The notes under the pieces were generated by a model. That model was not told the DNA's origin. It saw only the letters and a list, made by a program, of their open reading frames with translations, and searched no databases. Positions 26,790 to 63,114 of a DNA stretch of 64,000 bases are shown one piece after another. A program made the position numbers and the translations under genes. This DNA is from Owenia fusiformis (Eukaryota): assembly GCA_903813345.2 (NCBI GenBank), contig CAIIXF020000001.1:24304001-24368000 (forward strand), read 5' to 3'. Numbering within the stretch: position 1 is the first letter of the stretch; every line of letters starts with the position of its first letter.

Positions 26790-27417
26790 ATCTGTTCACC
26801 ATGTTTGTTTATGGTGGTGCCAACCTCACATAGTCCAAGGCAGCCATAATAGAAAACTGATAATGATCAAGCCTATAGCTGCAAGCAGCTGGGCAATGAC
26901 CGAAAAAGAATAATCTGTTCATCATGTTTGTTTATGGTGGTGCCAACTTCACATAGTCCAAAACAGCAATGATAGACAACTCCAATAATCATAGCCTATA
27001 GCTGCAAGCAGCTGGGCAATGAATCTTAACAGAATCATCTGATCACCATGTTTGTATTCGTGTGTGCCAACCTCGCATAGTCGTACAACAATAACAGAAA
27101 ACTCTGATAATGACCAAGCCTATAGCTGCAAGCAGCAGGGCAATGACTCTTAAAGGGATAATCTATTCATCATGTTTGTTTTTGTGTGTGCTAACCTAGC
27201 ATAGTCCAAGACAGCAATGATAGAAAACTCCCAATAATGTCCAAGCCTATAGCTGCAAGCAGCTGGGCAATGACCCTTAAAGGAATAATCTCTTCATCAT
27301 GCTTGTTTTTGTGTGTGCCAACCTCGCATAGTACAAGACAGCAATAATAGAAAACTCTAATAATGACCAAGCCTATAGCTGCAAGCAGCTGGGCAATGGC
27401 CCTTAAAGGAATAATCA
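26790..27417. repeat. Tandem repeat, 5 x ~123 bp
   Basis: Core AGCCTATAGCTGCAAGCAGCTGGGCAATGA recurs at about 123-bp spacing. Confidence 0.9.
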
Positions 27418-29846: not shown

Positions 29847-30589
29847 ATAATATTTATAATATTAGCTTTAACCTTTCAATTCCACAAACCCCATGTATGC
29901 AGGTGTCCTATCAGGTATAACAATTTAAGCGTATTCAAAGTGAGGTTTAAGTTCTCATTTAGAAGTTAATTCATGTTAAAATAGAATATTGATTGGAAAA
30001 AAATAACGAAGCATATCTTATCTAACAAGGTCCTGCAATTGTCATCCTTGTAAACACTTCAAAGTAACCAACCATATTAATCAACAAATATAAAGAGAGG
30101 TGCAGTTTTCTAATAAATAATGACCACTTACCATTTCAAAACAACACATTATTCATTAGAAAACTATTCAGTAGGAAACTATTCAGTATAGTTAAGCTTG
30201 AAAATAGTGAATAGTATAGAATTCTTTGATCAATTAAAGCTGCAACCATTAGTGCAGGGGGCCAGTGTCAAAATGTATTAAGTTTGGATATTTCAGCAAG
30301 ACTAACATATATTTTTATTATCTACAAAGAAATCCCGTGGATGAACATCATTTCAGCTGATATTCCTCTTGAAACATGGTGGGCAGGTATATTCACTAGT
30401 ACAAGATTGACTGTAACCTCAGAACACAAACAGAATAGAAATTGGAATTCCTAAAACAGAGATTAAAGGGAGTATCAGATCTATAGAGCAACCTGTCCAA
30501 ATAGTGTATAAATTTCATATTATATTTTTGTATGTCGTTTACCCCTTATATATCTGACTCTGCTTTTAAACAACAAAATGTTAGTGTTG

Positions 30590-33500
30590 ATGAACCGAAC
30601 GTTTTGTGCAGCTTGTTTCGCACTTTCTTCACTTTTGTTACCTCCTGATGGCGAGATGAGCCATTTGACAAACATTTTTAGATTATCGTTGAAACTGTTT
30701 GTGGGCGATTTAATATTTACATTCTATTTGTGTTTGTCCAACCTTTGAACACTTTTGCTACAAGATTGGCATTGTTTGTACTCGTATTTCCAAACATTCC
30801 CACATGCTTTTCTTTGCCTTGAATACTCATGTGAAAAATCGTTCTTGTAATTCTCCGGAATTTTGTATTCAGGGTCTTTCATATGAACCTGTTGGAAATG
30901 CTTTTTAAGATATCCAATCTTTTTAAAGCATGTAGGACAGGTGTGCTTGCTTCTCTTCTGTTAACTCTGAGAATATTAAGTTGACACAAGCTAACTACTG
31001 CAAAATTTTATTTGATTCAATTAACGTTTCTGATATGCCCATAATTAACATTCAATTTTTACCTTTTCAATTGATACTATTATTGATGTTAAACTGAATG
31101 TTAAATGCATATTTAGTTTATTATTTCAGTTCAACATTTCCTTTTAATTGTTTATTTGATTATGACAATTGGGTAAAATCTGAATAAAATAATAAATCTA
31201 TAGTTCTGTCCAATTCCATTTGTGGTTCCATTTTTGGTAAGGGCATATTGCTAACCTTCTCCAGCTTCCTCTTGCACATTACTGTTTAAGACATTTGTCA
31301 TGAGGTCATGGACTTTCGCAGCATTCTTTGTTTGGTCGCTGACCTCATACACTTCCTTCTGTACCCTGACAGAATGTTTCATGAAGTCAGCAATCCGTTG
31401 GCGATCATCTTGCCCAGGGTACAAACTACATATCTAAAATGATAGATGTGTCTATGATTTAGACACAAGTGTGGATGTAACATATAGGCTTACATGTAGC
31501 ACCACTATGAAACATTAAAATTAAATCTTTAATATATATTTTAGTTAAACTGTTTTTTTAATCAGATGGTATCATATTGTAAGGAAATGATTTATAATGA
31601 TATATAAAACATGTCATGGTGTAGTATTATATAATAAGATATTCATCCTTAAACTTGGGTATTGGGTTTTTTGACCCACCCTGTATATTCTTATCTGACA
31701 AAACCCCACAGATATATGATAAGACAGCTGCAACGTCAGCAGTTCTTAATACTACAAGCGAAATTGGAACTTCAATATAAAACAGACAAAGGAATTAAGT
31801 AATACCAATGTGTTGTGAAGTGTTAAATTGTGAAAGTAAAATATTGTTAATATAACAACCTGTCTAATCTAAAGACAATCGAACCAGAAAAAGTGTCCAG
31901 AAGAGCAAGTGTTCACATTTCAAGGTTTTTAACATGGAAATCACAAATATGATATAAAATGTTTTGGCCTGGGAAGTCTGTGTTAATGTTAACCCATCTA
32001 TTACCATTCTCTCTAGGTTTACATCAGGCCCATCTATTACCATTCTCTCTAGGCTTACATCAAACCCCTGTATCACCATGTATCATTTTGCAGTATACTT
32101 ACATGGTAAACATAGTAGTCTCCAACCCTGTCAGTGATATGAACATGCCTGCACTCTAAGTTTACTATCGGGTCTGCATATAACGGTCATGATATAGTTC
32201 CTTATTATGTACATTTCTTTGATGTTGACTTTAGGTTTTCCAAAGAGAGCTTTAGTGTCTTTGACATACTGAGAACCATAATATTTCACAATATCATCTC
32301 TGGTCATCATTGGACCGGTTTTTAAGTTTCCGCTTCTTTGACATAACATTCATAGAATTGCATCGAGTCTATTCTGTTTTTTTAATAGTTCAAATTGTCC
32401 AAAATCTATGGATTTTTGCATAAAAGAAGGTACTGGTGGTTAGTTTGCAGCCGTTCTAAATATGACTTAATGGTCGACGCTTGCTTGATTTGTGGAAATT
32501 TTACATTCAAAGCAGGCTCTAAAAAATTCTCATTCAAGAGGTTTGAGTCCAAAGGATAATATCCTCCAACTCCTGCATGAAGGTCTTCGATGAATCAAAC
32601 GTTTTGTGCAGCTCGTTTCGCACTTTCTTCACTTTTGTTACCTCCTGATGGCGAGATGAGCCATTTGACAAACATTTTTAGATTATCGTTGAAATTGTTG
32701 TTGGCAATTTAATATTTATATTCTTTTTGCATTTGTGTTTGTCCAACCTTTGAACACTTTTGCTACAAGATTGGCATTGTTTGTACTCATTTCCGAACAT
32801 TCCCACACGCTTTTCTTTGCCTTGAATACTCAAGTGAAGAATCGTTCTTGTAATTCTCCGGAATTTTGTATTCAGGGTCTTTCATATGAACCTTTTTGGA
32901 AATGCTTTTTAAGATATCTAATCTTTTTAAAGCATGTAGGACAGGTGTGCTTGCTTCTCTTCTGTGTTAGCTCTGAAAATATTAAGTTGACACAAGCTAA
33001 CTACTGCAAAATTTTATTTGATTCAATTAACGTTTCTGATATGTCCTTATCTAAGTTACATTCAATTTTTACCTTTTCAATTGATACTACTATTGATGTT
33101 AAACTGAATGTTAAATGCATATTTGGTTTATTTTTTCAGTACAACATTTACTTTTAATTGTTTATTTATTTGATTATGACAATGGGGTAAAATCTGAATA
33201 AAATAATAAATCTGTAGTTCTGTCCAATTCCATTTGTGGTTCCATTTTTGGTAAGGGCATATTGCTAACCTTCTCCAGCTTCCTCTTGCACATTATTGTT
33301 TAAGACATTTGTCATGAGGTCATGGACTTTTGCAGCATTCTTTGTTTGGTCGCTGACCTCATACACTTCCTTCTGTACCCTGACAGAATGTTTCATGAAG
33401 TCAGCAATCCGTTGGCGATCATCTTGCCCAGGGTACAAACTACATATCTGAAATGATAGATGGGTCTTATGATTTAGCCACAAGTGTGGATGTAACATAT

Positions 33501-35820
33501 AGGCTTACATGTAGCACCACTATGAAACATTAAAATTAAATTTTTAATATATATTTTAATTGAACTGATTTTTCAATCAGATGGTATCATATTGTAAGGA
33601 AATGATTTATAATGATATATAAAACATGTCATGGTGTAGTGTTATATAATAAGATATTCATCCTTAAACTTGGGTATTGGGTTTTTTGACCCACCCTGTA
33701 TATACTTATCTGACAAAACCCCACAGATATATGATAAGACAGCTGCAACGTCAGCAGTTCTTAATACTACAAGCGAAATTGGAACTTCAATATAAAACAG
33801 ACAAAGGAATGAAGTAATACCAATGTGTTATGAAGTGTTAAATTGTGAAAGTAAAATATTGCTAATATAACAACCTGTCTAATCCAAAGACAATAGAACC
33901 AGAAAAAGTGTCCAGAAGAACAAGTGTTCACATTTCAAGGTTTTTAACATGGAAATCAAAAATATGATATAAAATGTTTTGGCCTGGGAAGTCTGTGTTA
34001 AGGTTAACCCATCTATTACCATTCTCTCTAGGTTTACATCAGGCCCATCTATTACCATTCTCTCTAGGCTTACATCAAACCCCTGTATCACCATGTATCA
34101 TTGTGCACTATACTTACATGGTAAACATAGCAGTCTCCAACCCTGTCAGTGATATGAACATGCCTGCATTCTAAGTTTACTATTGGCTCTGCATATAACG
34201 GTCATGATATAGTTCCTCATGATGTACATTTCTTTGATGTTGACTTTAGGTTTTCCAAAGAGAGCTTTCGTGTCTTTGACATACTGAGAACCATAATATT
34301 TCACAATATCATCTCTGGTCATCATTGGACTGGTTTTTAAGTTTCCGCTTCTTTGACCTAACATTCATAGAATTGCACTGTAGTCTATTCTGTTTTTTTA
34401 ATAGTTCAAATTGTGCAAAATCTATGGATTTTTTGCATAAAAGAAGGTACTGTTGGTTAGTTTGCAGCCGTTCTAAATATGACGTAATGGTCGACGCTTA
34501 CTTGATTTGTGGAAATTTACATTCAAAGCAGGCTCTAGAAATTTCTCATTCAAGAGGTTTGAGCCCAAAGGATAATATCCTCCAACTCCTGCATGAATGT
34601 CTTCGATGAACCGAACGTTTTGTGCAGCTCGTTTCGCACTTTCTTCACTTCCTGTTACCTCCTGATGGCGAGATGAGCCATTTGACAAACAATTTTAGAT
34701 TATCATTGAAATTGTTTGTGGGCGATTTAATATTTACATTCTTTTTGCATTTGTGTTTGTCCAACCTTTGAACACTTTTGCTACAAGACTGGCATTGTTT
34801 GTAATCATATTTCCAAACGGTCATGATATAGTTCCTCATTATGTACATTTCTTTGATGCTGACTTTAGGTTTTCCAAAGAGAGCTTTCGTGTCTTTGACA
34901 TACTGAGAACCATAATATTTCACAATATCATCTCTGGTCATCATTGGACTGGTTTTTAAGTTTCCGCTTCTTTGACCTAACATTCATAGAATTGCACCGT
35001 AGTCTATTCTGTTTTTTAATAGTTCAAATTGTGCAAAATCTATGGATTTTTTGCATAAAAGAAGGTACTGGTGGTTAGTTTGCAGCCGTTCTAAATATGA
35101 CTTAATGGTCGACGCTTACTTGATTTGTGGAAATTTTACATTCAAAGCAGGCTCTAGAAATTTCTCATTCAAGAGGTTTGAGCCCAAAGGATAATATCCT
35201 CCAACTCCTGCATGAATGTCTTCGATGAACCGAACGTTTTGTGCAGCTCGTTTCGCACTTTCTTCACTTCCTGTTACCTCCTGATGGCGAAATGAGCCAT
35301 TTGACAAACATTTTTAGATTATCATTGAAATTGTTTGTGGGCGATTTAATATTTACATTCTTTTTGCATTTCTGTTTGTCCAACCTTTGAACACTTTTGC
35401 TACAAGACTGGCATTGTTTGTAATCATATTTCCAAACATTCCCACACGCTTTTCTTTGCCTTGAATACTCATGTGAAAATCGTTCTTGTAATTCTCCGGA
35501 ATTTTGTATTCAGGGTCTTTCATACGAACCTGTTGGAAATGCTTTTTAAGATATGTAGGACAGGTGTGCTTGCTTCTCTTCTATGTTAGCTCTGAAAATA
35601 TTAAGTTGACACAAGCTAACTACTGCAAAATTTTATTTGATTCAATTAACGTTTCTGATATGCCCATATCTAAGTAACGTTCAATTTTTACCTTTTCAAT
35701 TGATACTACTATTGATGTTAAACTGAATGTTAAATGCATTTACTTTTCATTGTTTATTTGATTATGAAAATGGGGTAAAATCTGAATAAAATAATAAATC
35801 TGTAGTTCTGTCCAATTCCA
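30590..35820 (-). pseudogene. Tandem ~2-kb duplications of YR gene subfamily A (large N-terminal exon plus H/Y exon)
   Basis: HTCPTCFKKIGYLKKHFQQVH..CQSCSKSVQRLDKHKC..FVKWLISPSGGN..ASTIKSYLERL..RNYIMTVIC..PIVNLECRHV..YVYH|GTAAGT (donors after 32103 and 34118). 178-bp IADFMKHSVRVQKEVY exons lie at 31256-31433 and 33270-33447. Multiple frameshifts; extra ~620-bp internal duplication at 34.2-35.4 kb. Confidence 0.75.
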
Positions 35821-38305: not shown

Positions 38306-39311
38306 TATGTTTTACTCACTAGGGGCGATATTCTCGGTTTCCTTTGAAATTAAAAGTTAAATTAAGTTCAGTAAGATTTTTTAATCTTTTTTATCTTCAA
38401 TCATTATATTTTTTTAAGTAGTATAAACAAACAATCATTTATCACAAATAAAAACTTCAATGGCTCAATGACTGATTGGGAAACAGGCAGAGAATAATCA
38501 GTGAAACAACCAATTTATACTGAGAGAATTGAACTCACCTCTGTAGTCATGGCAACAGTTGCATCTATAACATCAATTATCTTGTGCTGGCAAATCTGCA
38601 TCAAAACAGTAGACTCTAGGGCCTACGTTCATGGCAAACAACTAGTCTACAATAATAATGATACAGTGTACAGTGGTTTGATGTAAGATTAGAGAATGAA
38701 ATTTTAGAAAATAGACTTAGAATATACTAAAATCCAAACAATTTTGATTTTATTTGCTCTATAAATCTGATTCACTCAGTCAGGTTGCAATAACCAAGAT
38801 GAAGAATGATGACTCGAAACATGTCACAGATTTCGATCCCATCTTCGTCTTGTACCCACTTTCGGATGAGCTTGTTGAGACTTTTAGCCCTCCGATTGTA
38901 CCATTGGTACTCGGTCACCTTAGGAAACATAGCGGAAACTATGATCCTGGCTCGGGTCTTAGTACGAATCAGTCTAACCGCTGTCTTCAATCTTGACAAG
39001 ACTTTCTCCTGCGACTCCCTGGGTCTGCCGTCCTTGCGAGTCAGGTTGCAATAACCAAGATGAAGAATGATGACTCGTGTAACCGAGATAAGATGTCAAT
39101 CATCTGCATCCATGCTCCACTCATCAACAACATCATCAAGGTCCTGCAACCTTCTTCCAGGTTTGGCATCAGTTGAAGCATATACGTGGTCACCAAGTTT
39201 CTTATCAAGATAACGACTCATCCCAAGTGCATGAGAATCACCGAGTACAAGAACATGGTCTGACATTGTGATATCTCAACTCCAGATGGAATAGCTGTGT
39301 TTTCAAAGGTC

Positions 39312-39319
39312 TATTTATA
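39312..39319 (-). promoter_or_regulatory. TATA box upstream of the SGNH ORF (repeated per unit)
   Basis: TATAAATA about 46 nt upstream of the ATG, preceded by GC-rich GTCGCGCG. It is mutated to AATAAATA in units 2 and 5. Confidence 0.45.
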
Positions 39320-39849
39320 GAACGCGCGACGACCTCTGAAAACAATTGATATTGCCTTGTACTAAAATATATAAAATCAACTCATATTTGTTTGGAGTTG
39401 TGTTTGTTTGTCTATTCTAAATACCTAATTTTGCATCTCTTTATTCAGATTTTTGCAATTTTTTATAATGTTCCAATGATACTTTTCAATACCTTTCCAA
39501 TGATACCAAATACTCCAAGATACTTCAAAACTACCATTATGAAATAATAAAATTTGATCTCATTTTTGAAAAAAACATTGCAAAAGAATATGTGGTAGAT
39601 CCAGAAGTGCATGTATATGTATTAGTATACAGTTTGTAATCCTTAGCATGGCGGACTGGAATTGTCGAAGTCTTTATACAACTGTAACCTCTCTTTTTAG
39701 ACAGGGCGACCATAGTATTACGCCATAGTCTGTTTTGCTTGACAAATAAGTCATAGTCCCGAGTTTTGATTTCTTTGGTGCACAAAAGCAGGTATTGGTG
39801 ATACAACTGTAACCTCTCTAAATATGATTTTATGGTCGATGCCTGCTTA

Positions 39850-40410
39850 ATTTCCAAACATCACCTCTTTTGGCCTTCTTCTCGACTGATCGCTAATAGT
39901 TGGACCCTTGCCACCTGTGGTTGTCAGCTCACGAAACATGTCACAGATTTCGATCCCATCTTCGTCTTGTACCCACTTTCGGATGAGCTTGTTGAGACTT
40001 TTAGCCCTCCGATTGTACCATTGGTACTCAGTCACCTTAGGAAACATAGTTTCCGGAGTCACCTTAGGAAACATAGCGGAAACTATGATCCTGGCTCGGG
40101 TCTTAGTACGAATCAGTGGAACCGTTGTCTTCAATCTTGACAAGACTTTCTCCTGCGACTCCCTGGGTCTGCCGTCCTTGCGAGTCAGGTTGCAATAACC
40201 AAGATGAAGAATGATGACTCCCGTAACCGAGATAAGATGTCAATCATCTGCATCCATGCTCCACTCATCAACAATATCATCAAGGTCCTGCAACCTTCTT
40301 CCAGGTTTGGCATCAGTTGAAGCATATACGTGGTCACCAAGTTTCTTATCAAGATAACAACCCATCCCAAGTGCATGAGAATCACCGAGTACTAGATCAT
40401 GGTCTGACAT
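39850..40410 (-). pseudogene. SGNH/GDSL hydrolase-like ORF (representative; ATGs at 39266, 40410, 41580, 42728, 43867, 45033, 46180, 47298, 48400)
   Basis: Consensus MSDHVLVLGDSHALG (block I), KPGRRLQD (block II), VIILHLGYCNL (block III), RIIVSAMFP..NKLIRKW. There is an in-frame TGA at about codon 57 in all copies, and the ORF is truncated before any DxxH block V. Confidence 0.7.
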
Positions 40411-43400
40411 TGTGATATCTCAACTCCAGATGGAATAGCTGTGTTTTCAAAGGTCTATTTATTGAACGCGCGACGACCTCTGAGAACAATTGATATTGCC
40501 TTGTACAAAAATGTATAAAATCAACTCATATTGATTGGAGTTGTGTTTGTTTGTCTATTCTAAATACCTAATTTTGCATCTCTTTATTCAGATTTTTTGC
40601 AATTTTTTATAATGTTCCAATGATACTTTTCAATACCTTTCCAATGATACCAAATACTCAAAGATACTTCAAAACTACCATTATGAAATAATAAGATTTG
40701 ATCTCATTTTTGAAAAAAACATTGCAAAAGAATCTGTGGTGGATCCAGAAGTGCATGTATATGTATTAGTATACAGTTTGTAATCCTTAGCATGGCGGAC
40801 GGGAATTGTCGAAGTCTTTATACAACTGTAACCTCTCTTTTTAGACAGGGCGACCATAGAATTACGCCATAGTCTGTTTTGCTTGACAAATAAGTCATAG
40901 TTCGAGTTTTGATTTCTTTGGTGCACAAAAGCAGGTATTGGTGATACAACTGTAACCTCTCTAAATATGATTTTATGGTCGATGCCTGCTTAATTTCCAA
41001 ACATCACCTCTTTTGGCCTTCTTCTGGACTGATCGCTAATAGTTGGACCCTTGCCACCTGTGGTTGTCAGCTCACGAAACATGTCACAGATTTCGATCCC
41101 ATCTTCGTCTTGTACCCACTTTCGGATGAGCTTGTTGAGATTTTTAGCCCTCCCATTGTACCATTTGTACTCAGTCACCTTAGGAAACATAGTTTCCGGA
41201 GTCACCTTAGGAAACATAGTTTCCGGAGTCACCTTAGGAAACATAGCGGAAATTATGATCCTGGCTCTGGTCTTAGTACGAATCAGTCGAACCGCTGTCT
41301 TCAATCTTGACAAGACTTTCTCCTGCGACTCCCTGGGTCTGCCGTCCTTGCGAGTCAGAATGCAATAACCAAGATGAAGAATGATGACTCTTGTAACCGA
41401 TATAAGATGTCAATCATCTGCATCCATGCTCCACTCATCAACAACATCATCAAGGTCCTGCAACCTTCTTCCAGGTTTGGCATCAGTTGAAGCATATACG
41501 TGCTCACCAAGTTTCTTATCAAGATAACGACCCATCCCAAGTGCATGAGAATCACAAAGTACTAGAACATGGTCTGACATTGTGATATCTCAACTCCAGA
41601 TGGAATAGCTGTGTTTTCAAAGGTCTATTTATAGAACGCGCGACGACCTCTGAGAACAATTGATATTGCCTTGTACTAAAATATATAAAATCAACTCATA
41701 TTGATTGGAGTTGTGTTTGTTTGTCTATTCTAAATACCTAATTTTGCATCTCTTTATTCAGATTTTTGCAATTTTTTATAATGTTCCAATGATACTTTCT
41801 TTTCAATACCTTTCCAATGATACCAAATACTCCCAAGATACTTCAAAACTACCATTATGAAATAATAAAATTTGATCTCATTTTTGAAAAAAACATTGCA
41901 AAAGAATATGTGGTGGATCCAGAAGTGCATGTATATGTATTAGTATACAGTTTGTAATCCTTAGCATGGCGGACGGGAATTGTCGAAGTCTTTATACAAC
42001 TGTAACCTCTCTTTTTAGACAGGGCGACCATAGTATTACGCCATAGTCTGTTTTGCTTGACAAATAAGTCATAGTCCCGAGTTTTGATTTCTTTGGTGCA
42101 CAAAAGCAGGTATTGGTGATACAACTGTAACCTCTCTAAATATGATTTTATGGTCGATGCCTGCTTAATTTCCAAACATTACCTCTTTTGGCCTTCTTCT
42201 GGACTGATCGCTAATAGTTGGACCCTTGCCACCTGTGGTTGTCAGCTCACGAAACATGTCACAGATTTCGATCCCATCTTCGTCTTGTACCCACTTTTGG
42301 ATGAGCTTGTTGAGACTTTTAGCCCTCCCATTGTACCATTGGTACTCAGTCACCTTAGGAAACATAGTTTCCGGAGTCACCTTAGGAAACATAGCGGAAA
42401 TTATGATCCTGGCTCGGGTCTTAGTACGAATCAGTCGAACCGCTGTCTTCAATCTTGACAAGACTTTCTCCTGCGACTCCCTGCTTCTGCCGTCCTTGCG
42501 AGTCAGGTTGCAATAACCAAGATGAAGAATGATGACTCGTGTAACCGAGATAAGATGTCAATCATCTGCCTCCATGCTCCACTCATCAACAACATCATCA
42601 AGGTCCTGCAACCTTCTTCCAGGTTTGGCATCAGTTGAAGCATATACGTGGTCACCAAGTTTCTTATCAAGATAACGACTCATCCCAAGTGCATGAGAAT
42701 CACCGAGTACTAGAACATGGTCTGACATTGTGATATCTCAACTCCAGGTGGAATAGCTGTGTTTTCAAAGGTCTATTTATAGAACGCACGACGACCTCTG
42801 AGAACAATTGATATTGCCTTGTACAAAAATATATAAAATCAACTCATATTGATTGGAGTTGTGTTTGTCTATTCTAAATACCTAATTTTGCATCTCTTTA
42901 TTCAGATTTTTGCAATTTTTTATAATGTTCCAATGATACTTTTCAATACCTTTCCAATGATACCAAATACTCCAAGATACTTCAAAACTACCATTATGAA
43001 ATAATAAGATTTGATCTCATTTTTGAAAAAAACATTGCAAAAGAATCTGTGGTGGATCAAGAAGTGCATGTATATTTATTAGTATACAGTTTGTAATCCT
43101 TAGCATGGCGGACGGGAATTGTCGAAGTCTTTATACAACTGTAACCTCTCTTTTTAGACAGGGCGACCATAGTATTACGCCATAGTCTGTTTTGCTTGAC
43201 AAATAAGTCATAGTCCCGAGTTTTGATTTCTTTGGTGCACAAAAGCAGGTATTGGTGATACAACTGTAACCTCTCTAAATATGATTTTATGGTCGATGCC
43301 TGCTTAATTTCCAAACATCACCTCTTTTGGCCTTCTTCTCGACTGATCGCTAATAGTTGGACCCTTGCCACCTGTGGTTGTCAGCTCACGAAACATGTCA

Positions 43401-46400
43401 CAGATTTCGATCCCATCTTCGTCTTGTACCCACTTTCGGATGAGCTTGTTGAGACTTTTAGCCCTCCGATTGTACCATTGGTACTCAGTTACCTTAGGAA
43501 ACATAGTTTCCGGAGTCACCTTAGGAAACATAGCGGAAACTATGATCCTGGCTCGGGTCTTAGTACGAATCAGTGGAACCGTTGTCTTCAATCTTGACAA
43601 GACTTTCTCCTGCGACTCCCTGGGTCTGCCGTCCTTGCGAGTCAGGTTGCAATAACCAAGATGAAGAATGATGACTCCCGTAACCGAGATAAGATGTCAA
43701 TCATCTGCATCCATGCTCCACTCATCAACAATATCATCAAGGTCCTGCAACCTTCTTCCAGGTTTGGCATCAGTTGAAGCATATACGTGGTCACCAAGTT
43801 TCTTATCAAGATAACAACCCATCCCAAGTGCATGAGAATCACCGAGTATTAGAACATGGTCTGACATTGTGATATCTCAACTCCAGATGGAATAGCTGTG
43901 TTTTCAAAGGTCTATTTATTGAACGCGCGACGACCTCTGAGAACAATTGATATTGCCTTGTACAAAAATGTATAAAATCAACTCATATTGATTGGAGTTG
44001 TGTTTGTTTGTCTATTCTAAATACCTAATTTTGCATCTCTTTATTCAGATTTTTGCAATTTTTTATAATGTTCCAATGATACTTTTCAATACCTTTCCAA
44101 TGATACCAAATACTCAAAGATACTTCAAAACTACCATTATGAAATAATAAGATTTGATCTCATTTTTGAAAAAAACATTGCAAAAGAATCTGTGGTGGAT
44201 CCAGAAGTGCATGTATATGTATTAGTATACAGTTTGTAATCCTTAGCATGGCGGACGGGAATTGTCGAAGTCTTTATACAACTGTAACCTCTCTTTTTAG
44301 ACAGGGCGACCATAGAATTACGCCATAGTCTGTTTTGCTTGACAAATAAGTCATAGTTCGAGTTTTGATTTCTTTGGTGCACAAAAGCAGGTATTGGTGA
44401 TACAACTGTAACCTCTCTAAATATGATTTTATGGTCGATGCCTGCTTAATTTCCAAACATCACCTCTTTTGGCCTTCTTCTGGACTGATCGCTAATAGTT
44501 GGACCCTTGCCACCTGTGGTTGTCAGCTCACGAAACATGTCACAGATTTCTATCCCATCTTCGTCTTGAACCCACTTTCGGATGAGCTTGTTGAGATTTT
44601 TAGCCCTCCCATTGTACCATTGGTACTCAGTCACCTTAGGAAATATAGTTTCCGGAGTCACCTTAGGAAACATAGTTTCCGGAGTCACCTTAGGAAACAT
44701 AGCGGAAATTATGATCCTGGCTCGGGTCTTAGTACGAATCAGTCGAACCGCTGTCTTCAATCTTGACAAGACTTTCTCCTGCGACTCCCTGGGTCTGCCG
44801 TCCTTGCGAGTCAGAATGCAATAACCAAGATGAAGAATGATGACTCGTGTAACCGATATAAGATGTCAATCATCTGCATCCATGCTCCACTCATCAACAA
44901 CATCATCAAGGTCCTGCAACCTTCTTCCAGGTTTGGCATCAGTTGTCTATACGTGCTCACCAAGTTTCTTATCAAGATAACGACCCATCCCAAGTGCATG
45001 AGAATCACAAAGTACTAGAACATGGTTTGACATTGTGATATCTCAACTCCAGATGGAATAGCTGTGTTTTCAAAGGTCTATTTATAGAACGCGCGACAAC
45101 CTCTGAGAACAATTGATATTGCCTTGTACTAAAATATATAAAATCAACTCATATTGATTGGAGTTGTGTTTGTTTGTCTATTCTAAATACCTAATTTTGC
45201 ATCTCTTTATTCAGATTTTTGCAATTTTTTATAATGTTCCAATGATACTTTCTTTTCAATACCTTTCCAATGATACCAAATACTCCCAAGATACTTCAAA
45301 ACTACCATTATGAAATAATAAGATTTGATCTCATTTTTGAAAAAAACATTGCAAAAGAATATGTGGTGGATCCAGAAGTGCATGTATATGTATTAGTATA
45401 CAGTTTGTAATCCTTAGCATGGCGGACGGGAATTGTCGAAGTCTTTATACAACTGTAACCTCTCTTTTTAGACAGGGCGACCATAGTATTACGCCATAGT
45501 CTGTTTTGCTTGACAAATAAGTCATAGTTCGAGTTTTGATTTCTTTGGTGCACAAAAGCAGGTATTGGTGATACAACTGTAACCTCTCTAAATATGATTT
45601 TATGGTCGAGGCCTGCTTAATTTCCAAACATCACCTCTTTTGGCCTTCTTCTGGACTGATCGCTAATAGTTGGACCCTTGCCACCTGTGGTTGTCAGCTC
45701 ACGAAACATGTCACAGATTTCGATCCCATCTTCGTCTTGTACCCACTTTTGGATGAGCTTGTTGAGACTTTTAGCCCTCCCATTGTACCATTGGTACTCA
45801 GTCACCTTAGGAAACATAGTTTCCGGAGTCACCTTAGGAAACATAGCGGAAATTATGATCCTGGCTCTGGTCTTAGTACGAATCAGTCGAACCGCTGTCT
45901 TCAATCTTGACAAGACTTTCTCCTGCGACTCCCTGCTTCTGCCGTCCTTGCGAGTCAGGTTGCAATAACCAAGATGAAGAATGATGACTCGTGTAACCGA
46001 GATAAGATGTCAATCATCTGCCTCCATGCTCCACTCATCAACAACATCATCAAGGTCCTGCAACCTTCTTCCAGGTTTGGCATCAGTTGAAGCATATACG
46101 TGGTCACCAAGTTTCTTATCAAGATAACGACTCATCCCAAGTGCATGAGAATCACCGAGTACTAGAACATGGTCTGACATTGTTATATCTCAACTCCAGG
46201 TGGAATAGCTGTGTTTTCAAAGGTCTATTTATAGAACGCGCGACGACCTCTGAGAACAATTGATATTGCCTTGTACAAAAATATATAAAATCAACTCATA
46301 TTGATTGGAGTTGTGTTTGTCTATTCTAAATACCTAATTTTGCATCTCTTTATTCAGATTTTTGCAATTTTTTATAATGTTCCAATGATACTTTTCAATA

Positions 46401-48975
46401 CCTTTCCAATGATACCAAATACTCCAAGATACTTCAAAACTACCATTATGAAATAATAAGATTTGATCTCATTTTTGAAAAAAACATTGCAAAAGAATCT
46501 GTGGTGGATCAAGAAGTGCATGTATATTTATTAGTATACAGTTTGTAATCCTTAGCATGGCGGACGGGAATTGTCGAAGTCTTTATACAACTGTAACCTC
46601 TCTTTTTAGACAGGGCGACCATAGTATTACGCCATAGTCTGTTTTGCTTGACAAATAAGTCATAGTCCCGAGTTTTGATTTCTTTGGTGCACAAAAGCAG
46701 GTATTGGTGATACAACTGTAACCTCTCTAAATATGATTTTATGGTCGATGCCTGCTTAATTTCCAAACATCACCTCTTTTGGCCTTCTTCTGGACTGATC
46801 GCTAATAGTTGGACCCTTGCCACCTGTGGTTGTCAGCTCACGAAACATGTCACAGATTTCGATCCCATCTTCGTCTTGTACCCACTTTCGGATGAGCTTG
46901 TTGAGACTTTTAGCCCTCCGATTGTACCATTGGTACTCAGTCACCTTAGGAAACATAGCGGAAACTATGATCCTGGCTCGGGCCTTAGTACGAATCAGTC
47001 GAACCGCTGTCTTCAATCTTGACAAGACTTTCCCCTGCAACTCCCTGGGTCTGCCGTCCTTGCGAGTCAGAATGCAATAACCAAGATGAAGAATGATGAC
47101 TCGTGTAACCGAGATAAGATGTCAATCATCTGCATCCACATCCATGCTCCACTCATCAACAACATCATCAAGGTCCTGCAACCTTCTTCCAGGTTTGGCA
47201 TCAGTTGAAGCATATACGTGGTCACCAAGTTTCTTATCAAGATAACGACTCATCCCATGTGCATGAGAATCACCGAGTACTAGAACATGGTCTGACATTG
47301 TGATATCTCAACTCCAGGTGGAATAGCTGTGTTTTCAAAGGTCTATTTATAGAACGCGCGACGACCTCTGAGAACAATTGATATTGCCTTGTACTAAAAT
47401 ATATAAAATCAACTCATATTGATTGGAGTTGTGTTTGTTTGTCTATTCTAAATACCTAATTTTGCATCTCTTTATTCAGATTTTTGCAATTTTTTATAAT
47501 GTTCCAATGATACTTTTCAATACCTTTCCAATGATACCAAATACTCCAAGATACTTCAAAACTTACCATTATGAAATAATAAGATTTGATCTCATTTTTG
47601 AAAAAAAACATTGCAAAAGAATCTGTGGTGGATCCAGAAGTGCATGTATATGTATTAGTATACAGTTTGTAATCCTTAGCATGGCGTACGGGAATTGTCG
47701 AAGTCTTTATACAACTGTAACCTCTCTTTTTAGACAGGGCGACCATAGTATTACGCCATAGTCTGTTTTGCTTGACAAATAAGTCATAGTCCCGAGTTTT
47801 GATTTCTTTGGTGCACAAAAGCAGGTATTGGTGATACAACTGTAACCTCTCTAAATATGATTTTATGGTCGATGCCTGCTTAATTTCCAAACATCACCTC
47901 TTTTGGCCTTCTTCTGGACTGATCGCTAATAGTTGGACCCTTGCCAGCTGTGGTTGTCAGCTCACGAAACATGTCACAGATTTCGATCCCATCTTCGTCT
48001 TGTACCCACTTTCGGTTTTAGCCCTCCGATTGTACCATTGGTACTCAGTCACCCTAGGAAACATAGCGGAAACTATGATCCTGGCTCGGGTCTTAGAACG
48101 AATCAGTCTAACCGCTGTCTTCAATCTTGACAAGACTTTCTCCTGCGACTCCCTGGGTCTGCCGTCCTTGCGAGTCAGGTTGCAATAACCAAGATGAAGA
48201 ATGATGACTCTTGTAACCGAGATAAGATGTCAATCATCTGTATCCATGCTCCACTCATCAACAACATCATCAAGGTCCTGCACCCTTCTTTCAGGTTTGG
48301 CAACAGTTGAAGCATATACGTGGTCACCAAGTTTCTTATCAAGATAACGACCCATCCCAAGTGCATGAGAATCACTGAGTACTAGAACATGGTCTGACAT
48401 TGTGATATCTCAACTCCAGATGGAATAGCTGTGTTGTCAAAGGTCTATTTATAGAACGTGCGACGACCTCTGAGAACAATTGATATTGCCTTGTACAAAA
48501 ATATATAAAATCAACTCATTGATTGGAGTTGTGTTTGTCTATTCTAAATACCTAATTTTGCATCTCTTTATTCAGATTTTTGCAATTTTTTATAATGTTC
48601 CAATGATACTTTTCAATACCTTTCCAATGATACCAAATACTCCAAGATACTTCAAAACTACCATTATGAAATAATAAGATTTGATCTCATTTTTGAAAAA
48701 AACATTGCAAAAGAATCTGTGGTGGATCCAGAAGTGCATGTATATGTATTAGTATACAGTTTGTAATCCTTAGCATGGCGAATGGGAATTGTCGAAGTCT
48801 TTATACAACTGTAACCTCTCTTTTTAGACAGGGCGACCATAGTATTACGCCATAGTCTGTTTTGCTTGACAAATAAGTCATAGTTCGAGTTTTGATTTCT
48901 TTGGTGCACAAAAGCAGGTATTGGTGATACAACTGTAACCTCTCTAAATATGATTTTATGGTCGATGCCTGCTTA

Positions 48976-51900
48976 ATGTTAGGAAATTCCTTATTAAGGG
49001 TAGGGGTGTTTTCAAGCTCTCTCTTTTTAGACAGGGCGACCATAGTATTACGCCATAGTCTGTTTTGCTTGACAAATAAGTCATAGTTCGAGTTTCGATT
49101 TCTTTGGTGCACAAAAGCAGGTATTAGTGATACAACTGTAACCTCTCTAAATATGATTTTATGCTCGAAACCTGCTTAATATTAGGAAATTCCTTATTAA
49201 GGGTAGGGGTGATGGATTTTTTACAAAGAACATTTTGGTCTTTGGGATTATAGCCTCCAACACCAATGTGTAAGTCCTCAATAAACTTAATATTATGAGC
49301 AGCACGTTTTGCTGTCTCGTGACTTTTGTTGCCTCCGGATGGGCTGGAGTGCCAGGCAATGAAACGTTCCATCTTTTCAGTAAAATTGGTTGTTGTTTTA
49401 GCTTTTCAGTAAAATTGGTTGTTGTTTTAGGTGCAGATGTTTCACATGTTTTTAAATGTTTGTCAAGTCTTTGGACATTTTCCCACATTTTTTATATTTA
49501 TATTGTCTTTTGATTCGACACTCTTCTTTTTCTAGAATATTCATGAGAAAATGTTGCTTTAAAATTTTGGGGAATTTTATAATTTGGATCTTTAAAATCT
49601 GCTTGTCTTAGATTCTTTCATGAATGAGAGGGAACTTAACATTATACATAAAAAGCAGAAATCATCTCCTCCAAATAGCATACAAACCAGAAAATCTCCT
49701 CCAAATGTTTTCTCTGCTCGTCTTAGATCCTTTCATGAATGAGAGGGAACTTAACATTATACATGCAAACATATACATAAAAAGCAGAAATCATCTCCTC
49801 CAAATAGCATACAAACCAGAAAATCTCCTCCAAATGTTTTCTCTGCTCGTCTTAGATCCTTTCATGAATGAGAGGGAACTTAACATTATACATGCAAACC
49901 AGAAACCACCTCCTCCAAATATTTCCTCTGATAGCCTCAAGGTCAGAGAGAATGCAACATTACATACAACCACAAACAAGCTGACCTCCAAATATTATCC
50001 TTTCAGTCTCATAAGCCCAACATTACATGTTCACAAATACAAACACAATGCATAGAACTCAAAGAGCCTCTTAATAATTGTTATTGTTTAGATTCCATAT
50101 CCCATAAAATGAAGTGAGGTATTTTATCATAAATCTGATTCTCTATTAAGTTCTAATTTATAGTAATCCTTGGATAAGAAACAAAGTTGTGATTCTTCTA
50201 TGAGGCTCTTTCCAAAACATCATATAAAGTCAAACATAACAAACACTGTGGTAAGATGCACTCCGAGTAAATATTAAATAAAAACTGAAACAAATATTGT
50301 AGATGGTAGAAAAAGGACATGAAGGTTATTCAAACTAATTTTAGATGCTTATATATTGGATTATGAATGTTATTTTCATATTGGGATTACATTTGCCATC
50401 CATCAATTCCAAAATTTCAAAAATTCATTTTCCTTCAAGAAATAAATCATGTTTTGAAGTTTATTCTTATTATGCATTAACCTTCAGATGACATACATAG
50501 GAGAGGGTTACTGTTTAAAGGTTAAAAACTTTAACAAAAAGTTGCTTTTTTGGAGACAATAATTTGATTTCCTAAATGGTGTACTGAGCAGGATTAATTT
50601 GCAATAATACTTACATGGTAAACATAACCATGTCCAATTTTGTCTGCTTGGTTGACATGCCTGCATTCAAGATTAATGATTGGTCCTGCCCGGCATGCAT
50701 TTGGGATACAGATAATTGTCATCAAGTAGTTTCGCAGGCGATACATATCACTACTTTCAATTTTTTCTTGGTCGAATAATTCTTTGTTTTTTTTACATAA
50801 GCTGAACAATGGAAGTCTTTAATATCTTGTTTTGTGGGGAGATTTTCTGCACTATTTGCTTGATTTTCAAGCTCTCTCTTTTTAGACAGGGCGACCATAG
50901 TATTACGCGATAGTCTGTTTTGCTTGACAAATAAGTCATAGTCCCGAGTTTTGATTTCTTTAGTGCACAAAAGCAGGCATTGGTGATACAACTGTAACCT
51001 CTCTAAATATGATTTTATGGTCGATGCCTGCTTACTGTTAGGAAATTCCTTATTAAGGGTAGGGGTGTTTTCAAGCTCTCTCTTTTTAGACAGAGCGACC
51101 ATAGTATTAGGCCATAGTCTGTTTTGCTTGACAAATAAGTCATAGTCCTGAGTTTCAATTTCTTTGGTGCACAAAAGCAGGTATTAGTGATACAACTGTA
51201 ACCCCTCTAAATATGATTTTATGGTCAATACCTGCTTAATGTTAGGAAATTCCTTATTAAGGGTAGGGGTGATGGATTTTTCACAAAGAACATTTTGGTC
51301 TGGGATTATAGCCTCCAACACCAATGTGTAAGTCCTCAATAAACTTAATATTATGAGCAGCACGTTTTGCTGTCTCGTGACTTTTGTTGCCTCCGGATGG
51401 GCTGGAGTGCCAGGCAATGAAACGTTCCATCTTTTCAGTAAAATTGGTTGTTGTTTTAGGTGCAGATGTTTCACATGTTTTTAAATGTTTGTCAAGTCTT
51501 TGGACATTTTCCCACATTTTTTATATTTATATTGTCTTTTTTGATTCGACACTCTTCTTTTTCTAGAATATTCATGAGAAAATGTTGCTTTAAAATTTTG
51601 GGGAATTTTATAATTTGGATCTTTAAAATCTGCTTGTCTTAGATTCTTTCATGAATGAGAGGGAACTTAACATTATACATAAAAAGCAGAAATCATCTCC
51701 TCCAAATAGCATACAAACCAGAAACCTATCTCCTCCAAATGTTTTCTCTGCTCGTCTTAGATCCTTTCATGAATGAGAGGGAACTTAACATTATACATGC
51801 AAACCAGAAACCACCTCCTCCAAATATTTCCTCTGATAGCCTCAAGGTCAGAGAGAATGCAACATTACATACAACCACAAACAAGCTGACCTCCAAATAT

Positions 51901-52497
51901 TATCCTTTCAGTCTCATTAGCCCAACATTACATGTTCACAAATACAAACACAATGCATAGAACTCAAAGAGCCTCTAATAATTGTTATTGTTTAGATTCC
52001 ATATCCCATAAAATGAAGTGAGGTATTTTATCATAAATCTGATTCTATATTAAGTTCTAATTTATAGTAATCCTTGGATAAGAAACAAAGTTGTGATTCT
52101 TCTATGAGGCACTTTCCAAAACATCATATGAAGTCAAACATAACAAACACTGTGGTAAGATGCACTCCGAGTAAATATTAAATAAAAACTGAAACAAATA
52201 TTGTAGATGGTAGAAAAAGGACATGAAGGTTATTCAAACTAATTTTAGAAGCTTATATATTGGATTATGAATGTTATTTTCATATTGGGATTACATTTGC
52301 CATCCATCAATTCCAAAATTTCAAAAATTCATTTTCCTTCAAGAAATAAATCATGTTTTGAAGTTTATTCTTATTATGCATTAACCTTCAGATGACATAC
52401 ATAGGAGATGGTTACTGTTTAAAGGTTAAAAACTTTAACAAAAAGTTGCTTTTTTGGAGACAATAATTTGATTTCCTAAATGGTTTACTGAGCAGGA
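48976..52497 (-). pseudogene. Two ~2.03-kb tandem partial copies of the YR subfamily B large exon with satellite and intron sequence
   Basis: 49624 and 51655 are equivalent positions. ERFIAWHSSPSGGNKS, STIKSYLERL and RNYLMTIICIPNACRAGPIINL..YVYH|GTAAGT (donor after 50615) are present. Frameshifted. Confidence 0.8.
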
Positions 52498-52518
52498 TTA
52501 ATTTGCAATAAAACTTAC

Positions 52519-53720
52519 ATGGTAAACATAACCATGTCCAATTTTGTCTGCTTGGTTGACATGCCTACATTCAAGATCAATGATTGGTCCTGCCCGGCAT
52601 GCATTTGGGATGCAGATAATTGTCATCAAGTAGTTTTGCAGGCGATACATATCACTACTTTCAATTTTTTCTTGGTCGAATAATTCTTTGTTTTTTACAT
52701 AAGCTGAACAATGGAAGTCCTTAATATCTTGTTTTGTGGGGAGATTTTCTGCACTATTTGCTTGATTTTCAAGCTCTCTCTTTTTAGACAGGGCGACCAT
52801 ATTATTACGCCATACATGTAGTCTGTTTTGCTTGACAAATAAGTCATAGTCCTGAGTTTTGAATTCTTTGGTGCACAAAAGCAGGTATTGGTGATACAAC
52901 TGTAACCGCTCTAAATATGATTTTATGGTCAATGCCTGCTTAATGTTAGGAAATTCCTTATTAAGGGTAGGGGTGTTTTCAAGCTCTCTCTTTAGACAGG
53001 GCGACCATAGTCTGTTTTGCTTGACAAATAAGTCATTGTCCCAAGTTTTGATTTCTTTGGTGCACAAAAGCATGTATTGTTGATACAACTGTAACCTCTC
53101 TAAATATGATTTTATGGTCGATGCCTGCTTAATATTAGGAAATTCCTTATTAAGGGTTGGGGTGATGAATTTTTCACAAAGAACATTTTGGTCTTTGGGA
53201 TTATAGCCTCCAACACCAATGTGTAAGTCCTCAATAAACTTAATATTATGAGCAGCACGTTTTGCTGTCTTGTGACTTTTGTTGCCTCCGGATGGGCTGG
53301 AGTACCAGGCAATGAAACGTTCCATCTTTTCAGTAAATTTGGTTGTTGTTTTAGGTGCAGATGTTTCACATGTTTTTATTATTAAATGTTTGTCAAGTCT
53401 TTGCACATTTTTCCCATATTTTTTACATTTTTTCCCATATTTTTTACATTTTATATTTATATTGTCTTGTTTGATTCGGCACTCTTCTTTTTCTAGCATA
53501 TTCATGAGAAAATTTTGCTTTAAAGTTTTTGGGAATTTTATAATTTGGATCTTTAAAATGTACTTGTCTAAAATGTTTGGGGAGGCCTTTATATTTATTC
53601 AAACATGTAGGGCAGGTATGCTTCCTTCCCTCTTTTTTGACACTTGAATCTGTTTTGGCACTCTGTAGATTTTCAGTTTTGGAAATACAAAATTACCACA
53701 AGCTAACTACTGCTAGATTC
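52519..53720 (-). pseudogene. Most complete copy of the YR large N-terminal exon (Zn-finger motifs, core-binding domain, catalytic Arg)
   Basis: KHTCPTCLNKYKGLPKHFRQVH is frameshifted into the 335-aa ORF: VQRLDKHL, WYSSPSGGNK, STIKSYL (internally duplicated ~60 aa), NYLMTIICIPNACRAGPIIDL (box I Arg at 52594-52596), YVYH|GTAAGT. Confidence 0.72.
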
Positions 53721-63073: not shown

Positions 63074-63114
63074 CTGTAAAAACAATGTGATTCTAAAATG
63101 ATTAACCCCTTCCC

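What the first reader, a model, noticed from the sequence alone, without database searches (positions are those of the whole stretch)
38778..48975. Nine-copy array linking a YR fragment to a standalone TATA-preceded SGNH hydrolase
Seen: each ~1.15-kb unit holds ~55 codons of the YR exon, an unassigned ~350-bp segment, a TATAAATA box and an intronless ORF with GDS starting at residue 9 and SGNH blocks I-III. Established: SGNH esterases occur in ORF1 of some CR1/L2 LINEs and in large DNA viruses. Inference: a compact standalone esterase gene next to a YR looks like cargo of a YR-mobilised or virus-like element, captured into a rearranged unit and recently amplified.
Basis: partly seen in the sequence, partly recalled or inferred. 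Interest (0 to 1): 0.75.

Follow-up and report, generated by a model that had tools for sequence, protein, structure and literature searches.

The report
Tandem array of broken esterase fragments
Nine head-to-tail copies of a stitched-together 1.1-kb piece, made of a broken and cut-short esterase gene plus a scrap of the neighbouring gene, fill 10 kb; it looks like a recent duplication product, not a working gene cluster or a new kind of mobile element.

Summary
The array is real: 38778-48975 holds eight full units and one truncated unit, period 1096-1175 nt, 95.9-99.7% alike. Units 2-4 were re-duplicated as a block into units 5-7 (99.28% over 3457 nt). All features lie on the minus strand.

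Each unit contains:
- 161 nt copied from an internal 204-nt repeat of the neighbouring gene's first exon;
- about 360 nt of AT-rich DNA with no match;
- TATAAATA (7 of 9 units) 53 nt before an ATG;
- an ORF starting MSDHVLVLGDS.

The ORF is SGNH-like. Pfam Lipase_GDSL_2 gives E 2e-6 (below its cut-off), and a low-confidence fold matches mostly GDSL/SGNH structures. It is dead: an in-frame TGA follows codon 56 in 9 of 9 units. It ends at the unit junction before the Asp/His block, and copies decay at roughly the neutral rate.

The esterase sits beside the exon scrap only because of two rearrangement junctions. One junction carries a 13-nt templated patch. This adjacency is no evidence of an ancestral link.

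The "YR" label is a weak lead: language-model neighbours only, no HMM or sequence hit, and no catalytic domain anywhere in the window. No relative of either protein turned up in the protein libraries.

SGNH genes linked to mobile elements, including Ngaro YR elements, are already published. I rate it ordinary, with low interest.

The parts
38778..48975 (-). Whole tandem array: nine units. U1 38778-39846 is truncated. U2 to U9 start at 39847, 40990, 42165, 43304, 44446, 45617, 46756 and 47880.
39847..46755 (-). Higher-order duplication: block U2-U4 (3457 nt) and block U5-U7 (3452 nt) are 99.28% identical.
42165..42728 (-). Representative SGNH-like ORF (unit U4). ATG at 42728, GDS at codons 9-11, in-frame TGA at 42558-42560, terminal TAA at 42165-42167 just inside the junction with the next exon scrap. 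No Asp/His block.
42774..42781 (-). TATAAATA 53 nt upstream of the ATG (U4). Present in 7 of 9 units.
42782..43145 (-). Unassigned AT-rich stretch (U4) between junction J1 and the TATA box. Its first 13 nt are a patch copied from the exon scrap 125 nt upstream.
43146..43306 (-). 161-nt scrap of the neighbouring gene's first exon (U4), covering positions about 11-171 of its 204-nt internal repeat. Best match is 50874-51034 at 98.1%.
42348..42394 (-). 27-nt minisatellite inside the ORF (peptide MFPKVTPET). It has 1, 2 or 3 copies per unit: U1, U8, U9 have 1; U2, U4, U5, U7 have 2; U3, U6 have 3.
48816..53569 (-). About 2.5 tandem copies of a roughly 2-kb unit that carries the first exon. 49713-51639 matches 51629-53569 at 93.4%, and 48816-49806 matches 50874-51826 at 93.1%. 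The array's last unit runs on seamlessly into it.
52519..53598 (-). Longest open copy of the first exon (P0001 frame 52501-53598). It has an internal tandem duplication of about 200 nt and a GTAAGT donor-like site at 52513-52518.
30589..35419 (-). Diverged paralogous copies (35-64% aa identity per HSP) of the same first exon in another 2-kb tandem cluster. They end at the same donor-like site.

Best explanation
The array is a young tandem amplification (a macrosatellite) of a chimeric, non-functional DNA segment.

Step 1 (inferred from the junctions): about 0.98 kb of foreign DNA became joined to the internal 204-nt repeat of the first exon of a neighbouring, itself tandemly duplicated, Crypton/YR-like gene fragment. 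The foreign DNA comprised the upstream region and the first two-thirds or so of a small SGNH-type esterase gene. The join looks like a replication template-switch or illegitimate-recombination event.

Step 2 (shown): the esterase part already carried a TGA after codon 56 and lacks the Asp/His block. Every copy inherited a dead gene.

Step 3 (inferred from the pattern of identities): unequal crossing-over or replication slippage expanded the 1.14-kb segment. A three-unit block was later duplicated again.

The copies now drift. No protein function is expected. Any activity would be at the RNA or chromatin level. Whether the esterase progenitor was a host gene or a mobile-element gene is left open.
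For: - Array structure and identities. Block duplication at 99.28%.
- TGA is shared by 9 of 9 units. There is an extra TAG in U6. The GDS glycine was lost twice independently (G to C in U3/U6, G to S in U9), the block-II glycine is lost in U9, and N74I occurs in 3 units.
- After dropping the misaligned tail of U1, there are 32 non-synonymous and 14 synonymous distinct codon changes. The neutral expectation is a share of 0.78; binomial p = 0.21.
- The ORF is more variable than the rest of the unit: 36 of 534 columns against 11 of 499.
- The Pfam Lipase_GDSL_2 match stops at profile position 159 of 178, and the ORF ends at the junction.
- Junction J1 carries a 13-nt patch templated from 125 nt upstream, giving a 19-nt direct repeat.
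- The last unit's exon scrap continues seamlessly into the 2-kb gene-fragment repeat.
- No other frame or strand of a unit has a Pfam match, and there is no RNA family or tRNA.
Against: - The progenitor was not found, so the order of events (stop first, then amplification) is inferred only from the stop being shared.
- The non-synonymous to synonymous ratio (about 0.64 of neutral) is also compatible with mild constraint.
- The ORF being three times more variable than the rest of the unit is unexplained. CpG decay or gene conversion of the exon scrap are guesses.
- A conserved TATA box and ATG in all units would also fit a transcribed unit. No expression data were available.
- Copy number cannot be checked without reads.
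Confidence: 0.7

Rival explanations
1. The esterase is genuine cargo of a YR-encoding mobile element (Ngaro-like or Crypton-like). The array arose from that element's own recombinase, for instance by repeated integration of circles into a resident copy.
For: - Ngaro-like elements carry an SGNH hydrolase ORF after the YR (PMC9210276, passages).
- Both junctions lie in the YR-like gene's exon.
- The exon's nearest named language-model neighbours are YR-type families at 0.82-0.86, and 9 of the 10 best share a family or clan.
- The exon itself is tandemly multiplied in two clusters.
Against: - No RT/RNase H lies next to the exon copies.
- No integrase or DUF3504 domain was found in any scanned ORF.
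- The scrap comes from the N-terminal exon, not from a position downstream of a YR.
- Junction J1 has a templated patch typical of replication or repair errors.
- The esterase is cut short and was stopped before amplification.
Confidence: 0.1
2. The esterase piece is the ORF1 of a CR1/L2/RTEX-type LINE.
For: SGNH esterases form ORF1p in these clades (PMC3905857, abstract and passages). The fold hits include PAF-AH, which that paper names as a close structural relative.
Against: - In LINE ORF1ps the esterase is generally preceded by a coiled coil. Here the ATG is 8 codons before GDS and an in-frame stop lies 4 codons upstream of it.
- The fragment is cut at its 3' end, not its 5' end.
- No RT follows within the unit.
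- phmmer against PDB chains at E up to 10 gave no esterase.
Confidence: 0.08
3. The nine ORFs are a working multicopy esterase gene family. The TGA would be read through or decoded as selenocysteine, or the 56-codon N-terminal peptide would be the product.
For: ATG and TGA are conserved in 9 of 9 units, and a TATA-like box in 7 of 9.
Against: - The catalytic Asp/His block is absent.
- GDS is lost in 3 of 9 units, and U6 has an extra stop.
- Substitutions are near neutral.
- Conservation is explained by the youth of the copies.
Confidence: 0.03
4. The copy number is an assembly artefact, with one or two real copies wrongly expanded.
For: Near-identical tandem repeats are error-prone in assemblies. 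No reads were available to check.
Against: Units differ by unit-specific substitutions, indels and 1-3 copies of a 27-nt minisatellite. They show an ordered three-unit higher-order pattern. Assembly collapse or expansion does not usually produce that.
Confidence: 0.05

Closest known systems
Macrosatellite / tandem segmental amplification with higher-order repeats (general class; recalled, no paper read here)
   Same: Kilobase-size units lie head to tail, with 96-99.7% identity, a re-duplicated multi-unit block and a truncated edge unit.
   Different: The unit is a chimera of two unrelated gene fragments. Its junctions lie inside a pre-existing 204-nt exon repeat.
Ngaro-like YR retrotransposons with an SGNH hydrolase ORF (PMC9210276, passages)
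   Same: An SGNH-type ORF lies physically near a YR-like coding sequence in an animal genome.
   Different: There is no RT/RNase H here and split direct repeats were not looked for. The YR-like piece is an N-terminal exon scrap with a donor site. The adjacency was made by rearrangement, and the esterase is truncated and stopped.
Esterase ORF1p of CR1/L2/RTEX LINEs, e.g. ZfL2-1 (PMC3905857, abstract and passages)
   Same: SGNH/GDSL-type domain with a PAF-AH-like fold.
   Different: No coiled coil precedes the domain, no ORF2 follows, and there was no sequence match to PDB chains.
texim genes: multicopy SGNH hydrolase genes of fish and invertebrate deuterostomes, Helitron-linked in fish (PMC4021074, abstract and Results part 1)
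   Same: A small SGNH hydrolase with patchy distribution, present in several recent copies and tied to rearranging or mobile DNA.
   Different: The platyfish teximY genes have 15 exons and are expressed. Here there is one short exon-like ORF, dead in every copy. Relatedness could not be tested because no texim sequence was in hand.
Crypton YR transposons and DUF3504 genes (PMC3212892, abstract and passages)
   Same: The exon's named language-model neighbours include DUF3504 clusters from molluscs at 0.83-0.84 and other YR-fold families.
   Different: There is no HMM match to DUF3504 or Phage_integrase even at E <= 10. The catalytic part is absent from the window.

Membership tests
SGNH/GDSL hydrolase | Block I: GDS(x) with the serine nucleophile near the N-terminus | tested here: met
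   GDS at residues 9-11 in 6 of 9 units. U3 and U6 have CDS and U9 has SDS.
SGNH/GDSL hydrolase | Family HMM match above the curated cut-off | tested here: inconclusive
   Eight of 9 units were scanned (U6 was not). Best is Lipase_GDSL_2 at E 1.9e-6 / 28.9 bits (U1) and 5.2e-6 / 27.5 bits (U8), against a cut-off of 32.9. PF19040 SGNH gave E 0.0011-0.1 in six units (U1, U2, U4, U5, U7, U8). U3 had no SGNH-type match.
SGNH/GDSL hydrolase | Alternating beta-alpha fold resembling solved SGNH structures | tested here: inconclusive
   The AlphaFold2 single-sequence model has pLDDT 49.7 and pTM 0.50 with five beta-alpha repeats. Most of the listed Foldseek PDB hits are GDSL/SGNH enzymes (PAF-AH, PatB, sialate O-acetylesterase) at probability 0.97-1.00 and TM 0.4-0.55, but only 1 has E <= 0.001. 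The low-confidence model limits the weight of this.
SGNH/GDSL hydrolase | Block II Gly and block III Gly-x-Asn-Asp (consensus recalled) | tested here: inconclusive
   G37 in AKPGRRL is present in 8 of 9 units (E in U9). The block III candidate reads GYCN, with Asn one place later than the recalled consensus, and is N to I in 3 units.
SGNH/GDSL hydrolase | Block V Asp-x-x-His (catalytic acid and base) | tested here: not met
   The Pfam match ends at profile position 159 of 178. The ORF stops at the unit junction, and no D-x-x-H occurs in the last 27 residues.
SGNH/GDSL hydrolase (working gene) | Uninterrupted reading frame | tested here: not met
   TGA follows codon 56 (58 in U8) in 9 of 9 units.
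Tyrosine recombinase (YR) / DUF3504 | HMM match to Phage_integrase, DUF3504 or SAM-like N-terminal domains | tested here: not met
   P0001 and five exon pieces gave no such family, even at E <= 10. No such family appeared in the ORFs of 55 aa or more outside the array from 14.1 kb to 64 kb nor in selected ORFs of 90 aa or more below 14.1 kb (22 short ORFs inside the 57.8-58.9 kb 32-nt satellite were left out).
Tyrosine recombinase (YR) / DUF3504 | Catalytic R-H-R-Y residues (tetrad as given in PMC3212892 abstract) | not testable with these tools
   The exon ends at a donor-like site shortly after a candidate first Arg. No later exon was found in the window.
Tyrosine recombinase (YR) / DUF3504 | Resemblance by protein language-model features | tested here: inconclusive
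   Residues 205-366 gave ResT-TelK_cat 0.86, DUF3435 0.85, DUF3504 0.84 and 0.83, Phage_integrase 0.83, Integrase_2 0.82 and NDC10_II 0.82. Nine of the 10 best share a family or clan, but all are under 0.9 and so are leads only. The whole protein matched unnamed eukaryote clusters at 0.93.
Ngaro-like retrotransposon | RT/RNase H ORF upstream of the YR in the same element | tested here: not met
   The only Pfam-confirmed RT domains belong to a gypsy-type element at 9420-14096 and a fragment at 63106-63342.
CR1/L2-type LINE ORF1p esterase | Coiled coil preceding the esterase, and an ORF2 downstream (PMC3905857) | tested here: not met
   The ATG lies 8 codons before GDS with an in-frame stop 4 codons upstream. 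Upstream DNA is 29% GC and non-coding. No RT lies in the unit.

The most novel reading that the evidence does not exclude
The esterase and its TATA-led upstream region come from a so far undescribed Crypton-like or other YR element that carries an orphan SGNH gene as cargo. The element's recombinase would have built the array by recombination within its own gene. The SGNH lineage has no detectable sequence relative among 1.84 billion representative proteins.
Probability: 0.08. Interest if true: 0.55.

Novelty: new member of a known kind. Interest (0 to 1): 0.2.

Why it matters
The main value is practical. A gene finder could call up to nine 'esterase' genes here that are all dead, and the YR-esterase adjacency could be mistaken for a mobile-element architecture.

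The locus is a clean small example of how an internal exon repeat can seed a kilobase-scale tandem array. One junction bears the signature of template switching.

The SGNH-like sequence is an orphan at sequence level. If its intact progenitor exists in the genome, it could add one more case to the list of SGNH genes tied to mobile DNA.

Tried and rejected
- **Esterase relatives.** The word-indexed search gave 47 candidates and none at E <= 0.001. phmmer against 1.84 billion representatives gave 0. phmmer against PDB gave 4 chance-level hits, none an esterase.
- **Exon relatives.** The near-length search gave 1220 candidates and none significant. The longer-length search gave 1275 candidates and none.
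- **Atlas search of the esterase read-through.** The esterase was not sent to that tool again.
- **Fold of the exon protein.** AlphaFold2 on a 10-row alignment of window paralogues gave pLDDT 37.8 and pTM 0.20. That is too poor to search with, so no fold search was run.
- **Viral structure library.** Only generic GDSL hits, none at E <= 0.001.
- **RNA gene in the unassigned stretch.** Rfam at E <= 1 gave 12 matches. All lie in the AT-rich satellite at 36.8-38.0 kb, none in the array, and all are far below gathering scores. There are no tRNAs.
- **Rest of the esterase beyond the last unit.** Nothing was found in 38200-38900 in three frames. tblastn gave only 4 chance HSPs outside the array, at E 7-25.
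- **Later exons of the YR-like gene.** Three-frame reading of 28.5-30.9 kb and 51.3-53.7 kb showed none.
- **Not available.** The genome beyond the window, sequencing reads, the viral and metagenome contig collections, and Repbase sequences of Ngaro, Crypton or LINE esterases. The progenitor search and direct comparison with mobile-element esterases therefore stayed unchecked.
Full report

Yes, for the most part. Tandem Repeats Finder cannot see periods above 500 nt. The direct-repeat search found nine copies in register with spacings of 1094-1175 nt. A blastn of one unit against the window gave eight full-length matches plus a truncated first unit, covering 38778-48975.

Pairwise identities in a MAFFT alignment of the nine units are 95.9-99.7%. 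U2/U5 are 99.74% alike, U3/U6 98.89% and U4/U7 99.65%. The block U2-U4 aligns with U5-U7 at 99.28% over 3457 nt, with 20 mismatches and 5 gap positions. A three-unit block was therefore duplicated after the units had diverged.

A 27-nt minisatellite inside each unit has 1, 2 or 3 copies and follows the same higher-order pattern. This ordered variation argues against a simple assembly artefact. Copy number cannot be verified without reads.

**2. Anatomy of a unit (minus strand, U4 = 42165-43306)**

- *Exon scrap.* 161 nt match five further copies at 49019-53131 at 88-98% identity, best 98.1% to 50874-51034.
- *Unassigned stretch.* About 360 nt of AT-rich DNA (29% GC over 339 nt). It has no Rfam match, no tRNA and no Pfam match in any frame of either strand (10 ORFs scanned).
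- *TATA box.* TATAAATA lies 53 nt before an ATG in 7 of 9 units; U2 and U5 have AATAAATA. The octamer occurs 21 times in the window against 7.7 expected, and 14 of these are outside the array. The motif alone is weak evidence of a promoter.
- *ORF.* It starts MSDHVLVLGDS. An in-frame stop lies four codons upstream of the ATG, so there is no unspliced N-terminal extension.

**3. The ORF is SGNH-like but dead**

*Evidence for SGNH.* Read through with X at the stop, the two units with a single minisatellite copy match Pfam Lipase_GDSL_2. U1 gives E 1.9e-6 at 28.9 bits and U8 gives 5.2e-6 at 27.5 bits, both below the 32.9-bit cut-off. The U8 match covers profile positions 2-159 of 178. The other units give only weaker SGNH-type matches, and U3 gives none (8 of 9 units scanned).

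A single-sequence AlphaFold2 model is of low confidence (pLDDT 49.7, pTM 0.50) but shows five beta-alpha repeats. Most of its listed Foldseek PDB matches are GDSL/SGNH enzymes: PAF acetylhydrolase, PatB, sialate O-acetylesterase and GDSL lipases. These score probability 0.97-1.00 and TM 0.4-0.55, but only one has E <= 0.001. I accept 'SGNH-like' on these two concordant weak lines.

*Evidence that it is dead.*
- TGA follows codon 56 (58 in U8) in 9 of 9 units. U6 has a further TAG.
- GDS is intact in only 6 of 9 units, and the glycine was lost twice independently.
- The ORF ends a few codons beyond the point where the sequence turns into the next unit's exon scrap. It has no D-x-x-H block.
- After dropping the misaligned tail of U1, distinct codon changes relative to U4 number 32 non-synonymous and 14 synonymous. 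The neutral share is 0.78; p = 0.21.
- Among U2-U8 the ORF is more variable than the rest of the unit: 36 of 534 columns against 11 of 499, Fisher p = 5e-4.

There is no sign of purifying selection.

**4. Relatives**

None were found. The word-indexed protein search gave nothing. phmmer against 1.84 billion representatives gave zero hits at E <= 0.001. phmmer against PDB chains gave only chance matches. The viral structure library gave generic GDSL hits no better than cellular ones.

Inside the window there is no other esterase-like sequence. Nothing esterase-like follows the last unit. The progenitor therefore remains unknown, and the genome outside the window could not be searched.

**5. The 'YR exon'**

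The 161-nt scrap belongs to a 366-codon open frame (52501-53598, minus strand; P0001). This frame contains its own tandem duplication of about 200 nt. It ends at CAT|GTAAGT in 4 of 4 copies examined, including two paralogues that tblastn aligns at 35-64% aa identity per HSP. It is thus a real exon-like unit with a conserved donor-like site.

It sits in about 2.5 tandem copies of a roughly 2-kb unit at 48.8-53.6 kb; two of them align at 93.4%. A second, diverged 2-kb cluster lies at 30.6-35.4 kb. None of these copies is followed by later exons.

Tests of the YR label:
- No Phage_integrase, DUF3504 or SAM-like domain was found in P0001, in exon pieces at E <= 10, or in the other window ORFs scanned (those of 55 aa or more from 14.1 kb to 64 kb outside the array, except 22 short ORFs inside the 57.8-58.9 kb 32-nt satellite, plus selected ORFs of 90 aa or more below 14.1 kb).
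- Sequence searches at near and longer lengths found nothing.
- The only support comes from language-model neighbours of residues 205-366: ResT-TelK_cat 0.86, DUF3435 0.85, DUF3504 0.84/0.83, Phage_integrase 0.83, Integrase_2 0.82 and NDC10_II 0.82. Nine of the ten best share a family or clan, but all are below the 0.9 level at which the tool treats a hit as more than a lead.
- A fold attempt failed, with pLDDT 37.8.

'YR-like (Crypton/DUF3504-like)' is therefore a plausible lead, not a result.

**6. How the unit was made**

The exon scrap covers positions about 11-171 of the 204-nt internal repeat.

*Junction J1 (exon to foreign DNA).* The exon sequence ...CTAAAAAGAGAG is followed by 13 nt (GTTACAGTTGTAT) that copy the exon's own sequence 125 nt upstream. 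This gives a 19-nt direct repeat at 43133-43151 and 43258-43276. Only after this patch does unrelated DNA begin. Such a templated patch at a microhomology is, from general knowledge, typical of replication template switching or error-prone repair. It does not point to site-specific recombination or to transposon insertion with target duplications.

*Junction J2.* This joins the cut 3' end of the esterase to the start of the scrap. It is the kind of novel joint that a tandem duplication creates.

*Edges of the array.* The scrap of U9, the first unit on the minus strand (highest coordinates), runs on without a break into the 2-kb gene-fragment repeat. U1, the last unit on the minus strand, is broken 86 nt before J2 and followed by a 39-nt internal duplicate.

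The simplest history has four steps. A piece of an already stopped esterase gene, together with its upstream region, was joined into the exon's repeat. The segment was duplicated in tandem. It then expanded by unequal exchange. Finally, a three-unit block was duplicated again.

**7. Comparison with what is known**

SGNH/GDSL genes tied to mobile DNA are well documented:
- ORF1p of CR1/L2/RTEX LINEs, where a coiled coil generally precedes the esterase (PMC3905857, abstract and passages).
- An extra ORF after the YR in Ngaro-like elements (PMC9210276, passages).
- ORF3 of rotifer LTR elements and ORFs of Penelope-like Terminons (PMC5408684, abstract and passages).
- The multicopy, Helitron-linked texim genes of fish (PMC4021074, abstract and Results part 1).

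The present ORF fails the LINE test: it has no coiled coil and no ORF2. The locus fails the Ngaro test, since no RT/RNase H is adjacent. Relatedness to texim or to Ngaro hydrolases could not be tested for want of their sequences.

Two of my three literature searches were for a YR-esterase link: Ngaro/SGNH/tyrosine recombinase, and Crypton/esterase/GDSL. They turned up the Ngaro case and no Crypton-SGNH element. This is not proof that none is in print.

**8. Verdict**

The 'cargo of a YR-mobilised or virus-like element' part is not supported by anything in the window, and in its general form it is already known biology.

The feature is a new instance of a known kind: a young chimeric tandem array of pseudogene fragments. 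Interest 0.2.

The boldest reading still open is an undescribed YR element with an orphan SGNH cargo whose recombinase built the array. I put this at about 8%.

Noticed in passing
9420-14096 (minus strand): Large gypsy-type retrotransposon frame in which the integrase domains (residues 687-876) lie before the RT/RNase H, and a SCAN-like domain lies in the gag part. From memory this order recalls Gmr1-like elements of deuterostomes (Pfam).
   Followed up: partly
36818-37151 and 37923-38271: An AT-rich satellite of about 48 nt lies just beyond the low-coordinate end of the array. It gives weak, far sub-threshold matches to several miRNA hairpin models, probably by chance.
   Followed up: partly
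57932-58749, 62272-62333, 49647-49899, 51678-51740: A 32-nt satellite (CATACAAACCAGAAACCATCTCCTCCAAATAG) recurs in long arrays. It also sits inside each 2-kb gene-fragment unit, upstream of the exon.
   Followed up: no
53600-53690 (minus strand, another frame); also about 30900: A C-x2-C ... H-x4-H zinc-finger-like motif (HTCPTCLNKYKGLPKHFRQVH) lies just upstream of the first exon, in a different frame from P0001. A similar motif precedes the paralogue at 30.9 kb. The only Pfam match is weak: Zn_SUZ12 at E 0.031.
   Followed up: partly
56562-56885 (minus strand); 63106-63342 (plus strand): A mariner-type transposase fragment (Transposase_1, E 3.5e-11) and a reverse-transcriptase fragment (RVT_1, E 2.7e-8). 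Both are unrelated to the array.
   Followed up: no
array units, ORF part versus the rest: Among U2-U8 the dead ORF varies about three times more than the exon scrap and the unassigned stretch: 6.7% against 2.2% of columns, Fisher p = 5e-4. CpG decay or conversion of the scrap by the neighbouring 2-kb repeats are untested guesses.
   Followed up: partly
23804-24814; 26790-27416: Two further tandem repeats: 347 nt x 2.9 copies at 92%, and 124 nt x 5.0 copies at 84%. The window as a whole is repeat-rich.
   Followed up: no
42165-42185 (U4) and equivalents: The ORF's last codons read ...AAAGAG|GTAATG or GTGATG. This could be the progenitor's own splice donor, lying about 12 nt before junction J2. 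If so, the progenitor was not intronless.
   Followed up: no
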